DNA of 60,000 bases, from assembly GCA_044892525.1 (NCBI GenBank), contig CM097885.1, positions 33,234,001 to 33,294,000 of the forward strand. Reading direction: 5' to 3'. Source of the stretch: Schmidtea polychroa. Lineage: Eukaryota. Positions 7,856 to 47,371 of this stretch are shown here, in pieces. The notes under the pieces are model-generated. The model had not been told where the DNA came from, did no database searches, and saw nothing but the letters and a program-made list of their open reading frames with translations. Positions within the stretch are counted from its first letter, which is position 1. Every line of letters begins with the position of its first letter. The position numbers and the translations under genes were made by a program.

Positions 7856-7947
7856 AATTAAAGTAGGTAGTTAGGAGCCCGCTGCAGCAACTCCCCCCCT
7901 GCTGCACGATTTTTTTTGCTGCAACTTTTTATTACGCAATTGTTCCA

Positions 7948-8330
7948 CACTATAGTGAGGGGGTCTCGATGGTCCTGGGATTTTCAATACAAAAAAATTT
8001 TTTCAATACAAAAACGATGGTCCTGGGATTTTCAATACAAAAATCTGACTACCACTAAAAAAGCATGGAATTTTCAGACTATAGTGAGGGGGTCTCGATG
8101 GTCCTGGGATTTTCAATACAAAAAAATTTTTTCAGTAGAAAAAGGCGGTCTCAATAAAAAAAGCATGGAATTTTCACACTATAGCGAGGGGGTCTCGATG
8201 GTCCTGGGATTTTCAATACAAATAAAATTTTTTCAATACAAAAATCCGACTACCAGTAAAAAAGCCAAGGATTTATCAGACTATAGGTGGTCTCCTTGGT
8301 CCTGAGAAACAGGTGGTCTACACTAAAAAA
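7948..8330 (+). repeat. subterminal ~100-130 bp tandem units of element A
   Basis: Repeated ACTATAGTGAGGGGGTCTCGATGGTCCTGGGATTTTCAATAC, mirrored at ~20740-21180. Confidence 0.85.
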
Positions 8331-8339
8331 CGTGGTAAA

Positions 8340-8820
8340 TTTTTTCAATTAAAGTAAATAATGGTTCTAAAAAATTAAATTACAGTTAATTATGGTCCAA
8401 AATTTTCAATTACAGTAAATTATGGTCAAAAATTTTCAATTACAGTAAATTATGGTCAAAAATTTTCAATTACAGTAAATTTTGGTTCTAAAAATTAAAT
8501 TAAAGTAAATTATGGTTCTAAAAAAATTAAATTAAAGTAAATTATGGTTCAAAAAATTAAATTAAAGTAAATTATGGTCCAAATTTTTCAATTACAGTAA
8601 ATTATGGTTCAAAATTTAAAATTCCAGTAAATTATGGTCCAAATTTTTCAATTATAGTAAATATTGGTTCTAAAAAATTGAATTACAGTAAATTATGGGC
8701 TAAGATTTTTGAATTAAAGTAAATTATGGGTCTAAAAATTGAATTAATGTAAATTATGGTTCTAAAAAATTAAATTAAAGTAAAGTATGGTCCAAATTTT
8801 TAAATTAAGTAATCAATGGT
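8340..8820 (+). repeat. ~31-bp minisatellite (AATTACAGTAAATTATGGTC...)
   Basis: Tandem units seen directly. The mirror at ~19840-20710 has more units. Confidence 0.9.
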
Positions 8821-9109
8821 AAAAAATTTTAAATAAGTAAATTAAAGTTATAATTTAAAAATGAGTAATGTAATAAGTAAATTAAAGTAAGATTTTAAAA
8901 TTTATTAACAAAAAATAGAAGGTGTTTGAGAATTGAAATTTTTTAATGAAAATTTTTATGAAATAATTTTTTAAGTAATTTTTAATAGAAATTTTAATGA
9001 AATATTTTTTAAGATAATTTTTAATGGAAATTTTTATGGAATAATTTTTTAAGTTAATTTTTAATGGAAATTTTTATGAAATATTTTTCAATGACAAATT
9101 TGAATAATA

Positions 9110-9799
9110 ATTCAACAACAAACCAACAACTTAGTACCAACAACCAGTAAGTTACGAACATGTAGTTACAACCAGATACCTACAACTAGTTATTAACAAC
9201 CAGTTACCTGATACCAAGTACTTACAACCACCTACCAAGTACTAACAACCCACAACAACCAGGTACTAAGCAATAATTACCAACAACCACCTAACAAGTA
9301 CTAACAACCAACAACAACCAGGTACTAAGCATTAATTACCAACTACTAAGTACCTACAACCAACTACTAAGTACCTACAACCAACATCAACCAGATACTT
9401 ACAACTAGATATTAACAACCAGTTACCTGCTACCAAGTACTTACAACTAGATACCACGTACTAACTAACTCTCAACCCCCACCTACCCATTAACTAGCTA
9501 CTAAGTACTAACAACCAGCTAACAACTAGATACCACGTACTAACTAACTCTCAACCCCCACCTACCCATTAACTAGCTACTAAGTACTAACAACCAGCTA
9601 ACAACTAGATACCATGTACTAACAACCGTCAACAACCAGGTACTAAGCCTTATCAACCTACAACTAGTTACTAACAACCAGTTACCTGATACCAACTACT
9701 AAGTACCTACAACCACCTACCAAGTACATACAACCAACATCCACCAGGTACTAAGCATTAATTACCAACTACCAAGTACATACAACCAACATCAACCAG
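9110..9799 (+). repeat. A/C-rich strand-asymmetric degenerate tandem repeat (CAACCAACTACTAAGTAC-like)
   Basis: G-poor repeated words. It continues at 11997-12300 and 13320-13610 and is mirrored at 18855-19545. Confidence 0.85.
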
Positions 9800-43620: not shown

Positions 43621-43712
43621 ATACCCTTGCGATATGTTGAGTGTGAGTAGTACCTTTGTGAGCAATACCCATAGGGGGACAGAATATTTTGTCGGATAGA
43701 CTAGGAGTATAT
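43621..43712 (+). promoter_or_regulatory. conserved Polinton-associated module
   Basis: Full copy. Confidence 0.6.
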
Positions 43713-44912
43713 ACACCCATGTTAAACAAGGTATGTGTATATAGAATGTGTGTGTAAAATTATCGCTCCTTATTGACAACTTCCTGTAAAGGCAAACACA
43801 GAATACTGCAAACATAATAATACTCTACCCCATAACTTAGTATGTAAAAATTATTTAAGGTTTTTTCACTAATAATAATAATAATTATAATAATAATAAT
43901 AATAATAATAATAATAATAATAATAATAATAATAATAAAGTTTAATGGGTTGTGTGAGTGTAAATAATATTCTAGGTTTTCACGAATATTGATAATAATA
44001 ATGGTTTATGAGTGTTTTTATGTTTTTGACTAATATTTGCAATAATAATAATGGTTAATGAGTTGTGCATGTGTGTGTGTGTAGAAATATTTTAGGTTTT
44101 TAATATTGATAATAATAATTGTTAATGGGTTGTGTGTGTGTGTGTAAAAAAATATTTTATGTTTTCACTAATAATGATAATAATAATAAGTTTAATGAGT
44201 TGTATGTGTGTGTGTGTAAAAATATTTTAGGTTTTTAATATTGATAATAATAATTGTTAGTGGGTTGTGTGTGTGTGTAAAAAATATTTTAGGTTTTCAC
44301 TAATAATGATAATAATAATGGTTAATGAGTTGTGCATGTGTAAATAATATTTTAGGTTTTTGACTAATATTGATAATAATAATTGTTAATGGGTTGTGTG
44401 AGTGTAAATAATATTTTAGGTTTTTGACTAATATTTGCAATAATAATAATAATAATAATAAGTTTAATGAGTTGTATGTGTGTAAATAATATTTTAGGTT
44501 TTTGATATTGATAATAATAATAATAATGGTTAATGGGTTGTGTGTGTGTGTGTGTGTAGAAAATATTTTAGGTTTTTAATACTGATAATAATAATAATGG
44601 TTGAGGGGTTGTGTGTGTAAACCATATTTTAGATTTTTCATTAACAATAATAATAATAATAATAATAATAATAATAATAATAATAATAACTCCCGCGCGT
44701 GTTAATACTTTAAAAGAAAATATTGAAAATTTAAAAAATAATAATATTTATGCAAAGCATGTGCAATAATTATGTCTTTGTTAATTAAGTAAACTTTAGT
44801 GTCAAAATAAGTTTTTAAAATATTTTTAAATTTTAAAATACCGCAACTTAATATATTTTTGTTCTACCCCTTCATTGATTTAAGTTGGTCAGAATTTAAT
44901 AATAATTATATT

Positions 44913-45022
44913 ATACCCTTTGAGACATGTTGAATGTGAGTAGTACACCTTGCTACCATTACCCATATGAGCAATACCCATAAAGGGATAGAATATTTTG
45001 TCGGATAGATTAAGAGTATATA
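44913..45022 (+). promoter_or_regulatory. conserved Polinton-associated module
   Basis: Full copy. Its upstream block 44735-44915 is also present in element C at ~27200-27375. Confidence 0.6.
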
Positions 45023-45273
45023 TGATAATAATATTCCCGGTGCGCGTAATAATAAATAATAATAATAATAATAATAATAATAATAATAATAATAATAATA
45101 ATAATAATAATAATAATAATAATAATAATAATAATAATATTACTTTGAAATGTATGTTGTAGTGAGCACACCACTAATTATATGAGTTGAGCGTATATTT
45201 AAAGAATAATATTTAGAATTTAGAAAATTTTACCTTGAATATTTTTACCAGTACCTTTGTGAACAATAACCAT

Positions 45274-45360
45274 GTGACTTGTTGAGTGTGAGTAGTACCC
45301 TTGCTAGCAATACCCATAGGGAGACAGAATATTTTGTCGGATAAACTCGGTGTATATATA
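45274..45360 (+). promoter_or_regulatory. conserved Polinton-associated module
   Basis: Full copy. Confidence 0.6.
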
Positions 45361-47371
45361 TTAATAATAATAATAATAATAATAATAATAATAATAATAA
45401 TAATAATAATAATAATAATAATAATAATAATAATAATTAAAATAATAATAATAATAATAATAATAATAATAAAACTTAGAAACTAAAAACTTAGAAAATA
45501 ATAATTATTTTAATAAATGACCTTGAAAAATTAAATGACCTTGAAAAGTAAATGACCTTGAAAATTAAATGACCTTGAAAAATTAAATGACCTTGAAAAT
45601 TAAATGACCTTGAAAATTAAATGACCTTGAAAATAAAAAGATTACTTAATTAAAACAAAAAATTAAATTAAAAAAAAATGACCTTGACCTTGATGAGTCA
45701 TATGACCTTGGGAATGACCTTGATGAGTCATCGTTCTAAAAATATTAGACATCGTTGGGTGAGTCATTGGGTGAGTCATTCTCTTTGTTAATATTAATGA
45801 TGATGATACCTTCTATGGCTCATTCGAAAGGTCTTGGACTGAGCTTTAAGATGAGGTATCGTCCAATAAATTCGGATAATGGGAACATTAATTTTTGGGA
45901 TGAAAAAGAGTAGGGGCCCGCCAGACCACTTAATAATTATATGACCTTGAAAATGATTTTTGGTAAAATGTTAATAACTTTGTCAATAATAATGATGATG
46001 ATACCTTCATTAGCTCATTCGAAAGGTCTTGCATTGGGTTTTAAAATGAGGTATCGTCCAATAAAATCCGTTGGTGGGAACATTAATTTTTGGGATGAGA
46101 AAAAGTATGTCCCCGCTCGGCCAATTAATAATATTTTGAATAATAATAATAATTTAACGTTGAAAAGATGGTGGTCATCAATTGTTAATAACTTTGTCAA
46201 TAATAATGATGATGATACCTTCTATGAATCAATCGAAAGGTCTTGCATTGGGCTTTAAAATGAGCTATCGTTGAATAATTATCGTTGTCGGGAACTCTGT
46301 ACATTTAAATTTTAAAATATGACCTTGAAAAAATAAATGACCTTGAAAAAATAAATGACCTTGAAAAAATAAATGACCTTGAAAAAATAAATGACCTTGA
46401 AAAAATAAATGACCTTGAAAAAATAAATGACCTTGAAAAAATAAATGACCTTGAAAAAAATAAATGACCTTGACCTTGACCTTGAAAATAATATTTTGAA
46501 AAATAAATGACCTTGAAAAATGGTCTCGGTAAAACTTTAATAACTTTGCCGATGTTAATGATGATGATACCTTCTATGGCTCAATTGAAAGGTCTTAGAC
46601 TACGCTTCAAAATAAGCTATCTATTAATAAATTCGGATAATGGGAACATTAATTTTTGGGATGAGAAAAAGTATGTCCCCGCCCGGCCAATTAATAATAT
46701 TTTGAATAATAATAATAATTTAACGTTGAAAAGATGGTGGTCATCAATTGTTAATAACTTTGTCAATATTAATGATGATGATACCTTCTATGGATCAATC
46801 GAAAGGTCTTGCATTGGGCTTTAAAATGAGCTATCGTTGAATAATTATCGTTGTCGGGAACTCTGTACATTTAAATTTTAAAATATGACCTTGAAAAAAT
46901 AAATGACCTTGAAAAAATAAATGACCTTGAAAAAATAAATGACCTTGAAAAAATAAATGACCTTGAAAAAATAAATGACCTTGAAAAAATAAATGACCTT
47001 GAAAAAAATAAATGACCTTGACCTTGACCTTGAAAATAATATTTTGAAAAATAAATGACCTTGAAAAATGGTCTCGGTAAAACTTTAATAACTTTGCCGA
47101 TGTTGGGAACATTAATTTTTGGGATGAAAAAAAGTGTGTCCCCTCCAGGCCAATTAATTAAAACAAAAAATTAAAAAAAAAAATTTTTTTTTTTTTCCCG
47201 GGGGGGGGGGGGAGGGGGTATATGTGGTCTGGAGGGGACCTGGTCTGGCGGGGACCAATCATACTACTTATGTATATATGATCTTATAAGAATTTCTATA
47301 AAATTTTATTAATATTTAAATTTAATAATTAAAAAAGCTTTTAAATTTATTTGATAAACTTTTCTTAATAT

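What the first reader, a model, noticed from the sequence alone, without database searches (positions are those of the whole stretch)
7862..47268. Candidate system: integrated copy-back (defective-interfering-like) Polinton genomes, three related elements in 40 kb
Seen: A and B have AGTAG...CTACT ends, exact 6-bp TSDs and multi-kb inverted arms, and C has a related right end. The three terminal sequences differ (AGTAGGTAG, AGTAGTATG, AGTAGATGG). None shows a recognisable pPolB, integrase, ATPase, protease or capsid gene. Known: Polintons have 5'-AG...CT-3' ends, 6-bp TSDs and TIRs usually of hundreds of bp up to about 1 kb, and they replicate by protein-primed synthesis via a panhandle. Inference: one end of the genome was copied back over the other end, deleting the core genes, and the fold-back molecule was then integrated by a helper integrase. 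This would be a DNA analogue of viral copy-back DI genomes, or a palindromic non-autonomous satellite class.
Basis: partly seen in the sequence, partly recalled or inferred. Interest (0 to 1): 0.9.

Follow-up and report, generated by a model that had tools for sequence, protein, structure and literature searches.

The report
Gene-less palindromic Polinton satellite elements
These are real, gene-less, mirror-image passengers of virus-like Polinton transposons: one is a copy of a many-copy 15-kb family whose two halves keep being made alike and whose ends are swapped with its helper, which offers a natural record of how such elements copy themselves.

Summary
A (7862-21264) and B (31903-47268) are real, gene-less, 6-bp-TSD-flanked elements with multi-kb inverted arms; C is a decayed relative lacking its left end. 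Their ends match gene-bearing Polintons of this genome, whose TIRs are only 1.5-1.9 kb. B belongs to a high-copy family: its fold-back junction is 100% identical in 40 of 40 scored hits. Arms within a copy differ by a median 0.65 substitutions/kb against 14/kb between copies, so arms are re-equalised after the palindrome formed; two cores occur with both of two end types. Correction: A and B did not lose genes by copy-back. Their cores do not align to gene-bearing copies, gene-less linear forms of family A exist, and half of A's arm is a private hAT duplication that looks in situ. Gene-deleting fold-backs exist elsewhere (polymerase in both arms). Best reading: helper-dependent palindromic satellites equalised during snap-back replication (0.65); in-situ conversion is the rival. 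The scan reported these families repeatedly in this genome and once in another; my paper searches found no description, but key Polinton papers and Repbase were unavailable.

The parts
7862..21264 (.). Element A: gene-less Polinton-ended element with extended inverted arms; a private variant of a heterogeneous family
7856..7861 (+). A left target-site duplication (AATTAA)
21265..21270 (+). A right target-site duplication (AATTAA)
7862..8352 (+). A outer left TIR, older part (5 mismatches in first 141 columns against right end)
8353..12048 (+). A inner left arm, 2 mismatches in 3,696 bp against the right copy
9798..11996 (-). Truncated hAT insertion in A left arm (zf-BED ORF 10600-11547); left border approximate, no terminal repeat seen there
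12049..16605 (.). A spacer = single-copy interior of the gene-less family-A core (longest ATG ORF 58 aa)
16606..20301 (-). A inner right arm; blunt junction at 16605/16606, found only at this locus among 40 scored hits
16658..18856 (+). Mirror copy of the hAT insertion (ORF 17107-18054)
20302..21264 (-). A outer right TIR, including 392 bp of extra 30-bp tandem units (20302-20693)
22897..30040 (.). Element C remnant: right Polinton end at 30040, decayed inverted pair 22897-24133 / 27410-28524, left end missing; left limit approximate
31903..47268 (.). Element B: member of a high-copy gene-less palindromic family
31897..31902 (+). B left target-site duplication (TATGTA, in TA-rich repeat)
47269..47274 (+). 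B right target-site duplication (TATGTA)
31903..33764 (+). Part of B's arm shared with the TIR of gene-bearing Polintons
31903..39108 (+). B left arm (7.2 kb)
39109..39787 (.). B spacer (loop), 679 bp; ~66% like the sequence next to the TIR in linear family-A copy L009
39788..47268 (-). B right arm (7.5 kb); junction 39787/39788 shared at 100% by 40 of 40 scored hits

Best explanation
A, B and C are non-autonomous satellites of Polinton/Maverick elements that are very abundant in this genome. Step 1 (shown for family A, inferred for B): a gene-less linear element with Polinton TIRs and an unrelated ~6-kb non-coding core. Step 2 (structure shown, mechanism inferred): a template switch that starts in TIR homology and ends at a blunt junction copies one end over the other and makes a palindrome; this recurred at many positions. 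Step 3 (inferred): helper polymerase replicates the element by protein-primed strand displacement; the displaced or nascent strand snaps back on its own multi-kb arm, and re-copying or mismatch correction makes the two arms alike again while the junction stays intact; recombination with co-replicating helpers and sibs replaces ends and arm segments, and the change is then spread to both arms. Step 4 (footprint shown, enzyme inferred): helper integrase inserts it with a 6-bp duplication, after which the arms drift apart like LTRs. B is a successful lineage of this kind. A is a one-off recent arm extension, probably made in the chromosome or just before insertion. C is an old broken copy.
For: Shared junction: 40 of 40 scored hits 100% over 120 bp, 965 candidates; a second junction type in 14 of 40 scored. 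TSD in 8 of 10 fetched junction copies and 1 of 1 more. Arm equalisation in 9 copies, 3,060 sites: within 0.65/kb median (0-4.9), between 14.1/kb (6.5-19.6, 144 pairs); private substitutions in both arms 61, in one arm 22; with the suspect copy L048 included 59 and 41, 0 of 169 variable sites side-specific, arms pair by element in 10 of 10 on the tree. End exchange: both cores occur with both end types, and both end types occur on gene-bearing copies with 97-100% identical proteins; L087 and B1 differ at 4 of 2,913 core sites but carry different ends, each matched on both sides. Mosaic arms shared by both sides. One-arm changes persist after insertion: a 12.6-kb insertion in one arm with the empty single-copy target in the other, a 346-bp deletion in one arm of L046, arms 97% alike in L052 and L101. 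Helpers present: polymerase (PF03175, 91 scored of 8,819 candidates; 55% identity link), integrase and A32 ATPase, capsid lead. All 5 inverted polymerase pairs among those 91 hits are TSD-flanked palindromes; 4 of 4 more P2-type copies have polymerase in both arms.
Against: No replication intermediate, free copy or trans-mobilisation was observed; plain strand displacement does not by itself equalise arms, so an extra correction or self-copying step has to be assumed. Window A does not fit equalisation at replication: outer 141 columns carry 5 mismatches against 2 in 3,696 inside (Fisher p 1.2e-6), and its junction and hAT border are private. In L093 the outer TIRs also disagree (28 of 331; may be repeat-unit misalignment). 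L048's palindrome runs into the flank and L040's ends have no TSD, so some loci are rearranged in place or misassembled. No linear progenitor of the B core was found (not specifically searched), and the origin of the cores is unexplained. Counts are lower bounds from the 40 best-scoring hits, and the fetched copies are the best matches, hence biased to young copies.
Confidence: 0.65

Rival explanations
1. Palindromes are formed and kept alike inside the chromosome by break repair and gene conversion between arms (the model proposed for Galileo TIR extension); they are copied onward by the helper, but arm identity says nothing about the replication intermediate.
For: Window A: old outer TIRs, new inner arms, out-of-register join in the 30-bp array, private hAT in both arms. 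Family A has many different arm lengths (at least 9 of 14 loci). L048's inverted flanks. Galileo shows extended TIRs and interior/TIR chimeras (PMC3573991 passages).
Against: One-arm insertion and deletion persist and arms of several copies have drifted to 85-97%. Conversion would have to be fast and complete in young copies, run exactly to the last base on swapped ends while leaving the TSD, and then stop.
Confidence: 0.2
2. One reading: one end of a gene-bearing Polinton was copied back over the other, deleting the genes in one step.
For: Fits P3 and P4 elsewhere (polymerase end duplicated, P4 folded inside the gene). A's spacer has a 660-bp, 75% match to the inner arm of a polymerase-carrying palindrome, so the core may descend from an unsampled lineage.
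Against: Arms beyond the TIR align to none of the gene-bearing copies compared (B: 0 of 7; A: 0 of 5); no gene relics by tblastn; gene-less linear forms exist.
Confidence: 0.08
3. Library or assembly fold-back artefact.
For: L048 has inverted flanks and many gaps between arms; A's junction is unique.
Against: Direct 6-bp repeats with unlike flanks at 19 of 19, 8 of 10, 7 of 8 and 3 of 4 fetched copies; one junction identical at 40 loci; arms differ in indels and repeat numbers; an empty target is seen in the opposite arm of the P3 host.
Confidence: 0.04
4. Foldback-type cut-and-paste elements moved by an ordinary transposase (hAT, P/Galileo, Mutator), with only a chance likeness to Polinton ends.
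For: Long, internally repetitive TIRs; a hAT ORF lies inside A.
Against: Ends and ~1.9 kb of TIR shared with gene-bearing Polintons; 6-bp TSD throughout; the hAT is a truncated passenger absent from all other fetched copies.
Confidence: 0.03

Closest known systems
Polinton/Maverick elements (Barreat and Katzourakis 2021, PMC8097293; Jeong et al., 10.1101/2023.08.22.554363; passages read)
   Same: AGT-type end motif, 6-bp TSD, 13-15 kb size, TIR sequence shared with gene-bearing copies in the same genome.
   Different: No genes; inverted arms of 4.2-7.5 kb against 46-1,447 bp (vertebrates) or 100-1,500 bp reported; near-total palindrome; amplified as a family. Those surveys selected elements by their genes, so they would miss such copies.
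Galileo '2RT' extended-TIR and X-E-X chimeric copies of Drosophila mojavensis (Marzo et al. 2013, PMC3573991; abstract, passages, reference list read)
   Same: Non-autonomous copies with TIRs lengthened by recruiting internal sequence; interior of one subfamily between TIRs of another; internally repetitive TIRs.
   Different: P-superfamily cut-and-paste, 7-bp TSD, TIRs at most 1.26 kb; explained by in-situ conversion. That paper states that inverted-repeat expansion was reported for Polintons, citing among others Jurka et al. 2007, which I could not read.
Copy-back and snap-back defective viral genomes of RNA viruses (PMC6140465, search listing and abstract start only)
   Same: One end duplicated in inverted form, long complementary arms, dependence on a helper, a few junctions that come to dominate.
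   Different: DNA, integrated and inherited; cores of A and B are not helper sequence; interference and packaging untested.
Panhandle and homology-restoring models of adenovirus/PRD1 protein-primed replication (PMC11886824 passages); adenovirus vectors made palindromic by recombination between internal inverted repeats (recalled; papers not held)
   Same: End correction through intramolecular pairing; a nested inverted-repeat element at the centre of a palindrome with inverted flanks, as in P1, P5 and the P2-type family.
   Different: Those are laboratory observations on short ITRs; here arms are multi-kb, natural and archived in many chromosomal copies.

Membership tests
Polinton/Maverick (autonomous) | AG...CT ends, commonly (AGT)2 | tested here: met
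   B AGTAGT; A AGTAGG and C AGTAGA are variants also found on gene-bearing copies
Polinton/Maverick (autonomous) | 6-bp target-site duplication | tested here: met
   A and B yes, C not assessable; family-wide
Polinton/Maverick (autonomous) | TIRs of about 0.05-1.5 kb | tested here: not met
   arms 4.2-7.5 kb against published ranges; gene-bearing copies here 1.5-1.9 kb
Polinton/Maverick (autonomous) | Protein-primed PolB and retroviral-type integrase genes | tested here: not met
   absent from A, B, C; present in relatives with the same ends
Polinton/Maverick (autonomous) | Packaging ATPase and capsid genes | tested here: not met
   absent from A, B, C; relatives have A32 ATPase and a capsid lead only (atlas score 0.97, cluster with DJR-like domain in 15% of members; Pfam, PHROG and PDB gave nothing clear)
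Polinton/Maverick (autonomous) | Adenovirus-like protease gene | tested here: inconclusive
   no protease was identified in the relatives scanned, so no query existed; A, B, C have no ORF long enough outside the hAT
Non-autonomous Polinton derivative (satellite) | Ends shared with a gene-bearing element of the same genome | tested here: met
   B 100% over 60 bp and ~90% over 1.9 kb; C 90% over 60 bp; A ~80% over 1.15 kb
Non-autonomous Polinton derivative (satellite) | No mobility genes yet many dispersed copies with TSDs | tested here: met
   B; family A; the exact A form is single
Non-autonomous Polinton derivative (satellite) | Moved in trans by helper proteins | not testable with these tools
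   inferred from ends, TSD length and end exchange
Copy-back defective interfering genome | Arms are a duplicated end of the helper genome | tested here: not met
   not for A or B beyond the TIR; met by P3 and P4 elsewhere
Copy-back defective interfering genome | Long complementary arms closing a loop | tested here: met
Copy-back defective interfering genome | Interferes with helper replication and is packaged | not testable with these tools
   no data
Galileo/Foldback cut-and-paste elements | Long internally repetitive TIRs | tested here: met
Galileo/Foldback cut-and-paste elements | P-type transposase partner and 7-bp TSD | tested here: not met
   6-bp TSDs and Polinton partners

The most novel reading that the evidence does not exclude
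A heritable class of palindromic satellite genomes of an animal polintovirus: gene-less cores doubled by fold-back to about helper length (11 palindromic B-core copies measured span 12.8-15.4 kb, gene-bearing copies 15.7-17.9 kb), which lets them fit the capsid (size limit recalled from adenovirus, untested), replicate through a snap-back hairpin that re-equalises the arms each round, trade replication origins with helper variants, and compete with the helper like DI genomes. Their arms would then date each insertion as LTRs do and give the first genomic proof of the panhandle route.
Probability: 0.3. Interest if true: 0.88.

Novelty: new variant of a known kind. Interest (0 to 1): 0.66.

Why it matters
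How Polintons replicate has been modelled, not observed; for protein-primed replicons a 2025 paper still says direct evidence of panhandles is lacking (PMC11886824). A family with one shared junction and 7-kb arms that are alike within but not between copies is a natural experiment on that question and a possible insertion clock. It also shows that gene-based Polinton surveys miss a large gene-less fraction, and that hundreds of multi-kb palindromes can shape an animal genome (breakage, assembly trouble, double-stranded RNA if transcribed; these consequences are inference).

Tried and rejected
Independent confirmation of A's private junction: contigs of 4 public runs laid on 16300-16900 showed no listed record bridging 16605/16606; loose ends there read the linear family-A continuation; contigs are short in this repeat, so this is inconclusive. 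Microhomology at junctions: none seen at A, B, the second B-type junction or P3; the P2 and A1 comparisons were out of register and gave nothing. Idea that a motif near both junctions is a decayed polymerase fragment: no tblastn support. Idea that A's right flank continues the polymerase relic on its left: no, so A's empty site was not reconstructed. C's left end: not in the window; outside not searched. L048 first taken as an old copy with drifted arms: dropped from the main count because its flanks are inverted; L040 dropped because its right arm is truncated. Capsid naming by Pfam, PHROG, PDB sequence search: nothing. Fold of B's centre only restates the palindrome. Literature: 10 searches listed no paper on palindromic non-autonomous Polintons; Kapitonov and Jurka 2006, Krupovic and Koonin 2015 and two 1999 adenovirus papers were not held, Jurka et al. 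2007 and Repbase were not seen, and no supplements were read, so prior description cannot be excluded.
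Full report
OBSERVATION. The window is AT-rich animal DNA (25% GC) from a 781-Mb assembly. Element A runs 7862-21264 between two AATTAA, element B 31903-47268 between two TATGTA, and C has a right end at 30040 with no left end in the window. A's arms are 7862-12048 and 16606-21264; the inner 3,696 bp have 2 mismatches, whereas the outer ~490 bp are about 96% alike and differ in tandem-unit number. 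About 2.2 kb of each A arm is the same truncated hAT insertion. B's arms are 7.2 and 7.5 kb around a 679-bp spacer, 99.2% alike over 7,081 columns. C keeps a decayed inverted pair. None holds a Polinton gene or relic by tblastn with all frames of 130 aa or more from L001-L039; the longest ATG frames outside the hAT are 58, 105 and 117 aa.

THE ENDS ARE POLINTON ENDS AND THE INSERTIONS ARE REAL. Searches with the three ends gave 1,218, 1,701 and 279 candidates, 40 scored each. Of 19 paired-end copies fetched, 19 have a 6-bp direct repeat with unlike flanks. Copies B2 and B4 have B's first 60 bases at 100% and carry integrase, A32 ATPase, a polymerase 55% identical to a PF03175 member and a probable capsid gene (lead only). 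Copies with C-type and A-type ends also carry these genes. Their TIRs are 1.5-1.9 kb; published ranges are 46-1,447 bp (PMC8097293 passage) and 100-1,500 bp (10.1101/2023.08.22.554363 passage). An empty target is visible once: P3 sits in one arm of a B-core palindrome and the other arm shows its 6-mer once.

WHAT WAS FOLDED. B shares only 31903-33764 with 3 of 7 gene-bearing or polymerase-bearing comparisons at high identity and nothing of its 5.3-kb core with any of 7 gene-bearing copies; A shares ~1.15 kb at 80% with 3 of 5. A gene-less 7.1-kb copy with ~0.7-kb TIRs (L009) contains A's whole sequence minus the hAT and continues past A's junction to its second TIR; L086 looks the same. B's spacer is ~66% like the part of L009 next to that TIR. 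Family A arms end at many different places: at least 9 of 14 further loci show extended arms, 1 is linear, the rest were unclear within 10 kb.

B IS A PROPAGATING FAMILY. The 120 bases across B's junction match at 100% in 40 of 40 scored hits (965 candidates); a related core with another junction matches in 14 of 40. Of 10 junction copies fetched, 8 have TSDs; L040 and L048 do not and were set aside. Over 3,060 gap-free unique sites in the 8 plus window B, arms of one copy differ by a median 0.65 per kb (0-4.9) and arms of different copies by 14.1 per kb (6.5-19.6); 61 private substitutions lie in both arms and 22 in one, 13 of them in L052. With L048 the figures are 59 and 41, no site of 169 is side-specific, and arms pair by element in 10 of 10. 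Since the junction has one origin, the arms were re-equalised many times afterwards. Ends are exchanged as well: both cores occur with both of two end types, which both occur on gene-bearing copies with 97-100% identical proteins; L087 and B1 differ at 4 of 2,913 core sites yet have different ends, matched on both sides.

WHERE EQUALISATION HAPPENS. For replication-coupled correction: one-arm changes persist after insertion (12.6-kb insertion; 346-bp deletion) and arms drift to 85-97% in other copies. For in-situ conversion: window A, whose junction and hAT border are found only here (1 and 2 full matches among 40 scored), whose outer TIR is older than its inner arm (5 of 141 against 2 of 3,696, p 1.2e-6), and whose join lies out of register in the 30-bp array; also L048. 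I read A as a recent one-off event and B as a lineage equalised while being copied. The latter is inference: simple strand displacement does not equalise arms, so self-templated copying of the second arm or heteroduplex correction in the snapped-back strand is required. Public contigs did not settle A's junction.

COMPARISON. These work like copy-back satellites of a Polinton but fail the membership tests for an autonomous Polinton (no genes, oversized arms) and, for A and B, for a true copy-back genome (arms are not helper sequence; interference untested). They pass the tests for non-autonomous derivatives. The nearest printed precedent I could read is Galileo TIR extension and chimerism, up to 1.26 kb (PMC3573991), which also says inverted-repeat expansion was reported for Polintons in a review I could not see. 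Panhandle-mediated end correction is described as a popular but not directly shown model (PMC11886824 passages). PMC11414722, PMC6431247, PMC3014272 and PMC3185507 were read as passages and describe no such family; the Anolis paper notes an apparent absence of non-autonomous copies there. Ten searches listed no paper on the family, but the founding papers, Repbase and supplements were not seen. The scan's own notes report the same kind of element at least seven times in this genome and once in another; these are unchecked and not counted as support; the size-fit idea was prompted partly by e1-7908075.

VERDICT. Real; observation confirmed with corrections; interpretation partly right. New variant of a known kind (giant palindromic non-autonomous Polintons with arm equalisation and end exchange). 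Best explanation 0.65, in-situ conversion 0.20, direct gene-deleting copy-back for these three 0.08, artefact 0.04, other transposase 0.03. Interest 0.66; 0.88 if free, packaged, helper-competing hairpin forms are shown (probability 0.3).

Noticed in passing
L016:3658-4134 (-); also L089, L091: Gene-bearing Polintons of this genome carry a 159-aa frame with a TATA-binding-protein domain (PF00352, E 2.8e-15) next to the ATPase.
   Followed up: no
L021-L023, L032-L034, L095-L102: Polymerase-carrying palindromes of 13-16 kb whose centre is a small nested element with Polinton ends and the same flank inverted on both sides, suggesting fold-back guided by the nested TIRs; the P2-type inner arm occurs as 15 inverted pairs among 40 scored hits.
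   Followed up: partly
window 7409-7838 (-): Frameshifted polymerase relic directly left of A; the right flank does not continue it. Other copies also sit inside Polinton genes (B6 in a polymerase gene, A4 in the putative capsid gene).
   Followed up: partly
window 6904-7360 and 30356-30849: Inverted pair, 83% alike, bracketing A and C; may be the ends of an older element or two dispersed repeats.
   Followed up: no
window 2431-4195 (-) and 57545-59455: Two further broken hAT-type transposase regions; the second has a 186-bp inverted repeat 57545-57730 / 58415-58600.
   Followed up: no
window 931-1268, 1799-2273, 4851-5353 (-): Fragments resembling an LTR retrotransposon pol frame.
   Followed up: no
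window 47375-47832 (-): Protein kinase fragment (PF00069, E 1.7e-12) about 100 bp right of B; whether B interrupts a gene was not checked.
   Followed up: no
L018 and L039: Short non-palindromic derivatives: 8.2 kb with polymerase only and 2.1-kb TIRs; 6.7 kb with ATPase, TBP-like and integrase remnant.
   Followed up: no
L048-L049 and L040-L041: L048's palindrome runs into the flank with a repeated right end; L040's left flank equals the flank at the centre of P1 and P5 and its ends have no TSD.
   Followed up: partly
G000 whole genome: 8,819 first-look candidates for protein-primed PolB: an extreme Polinton load compared with a median of eight copies in vertebrates.
   Followed up: no
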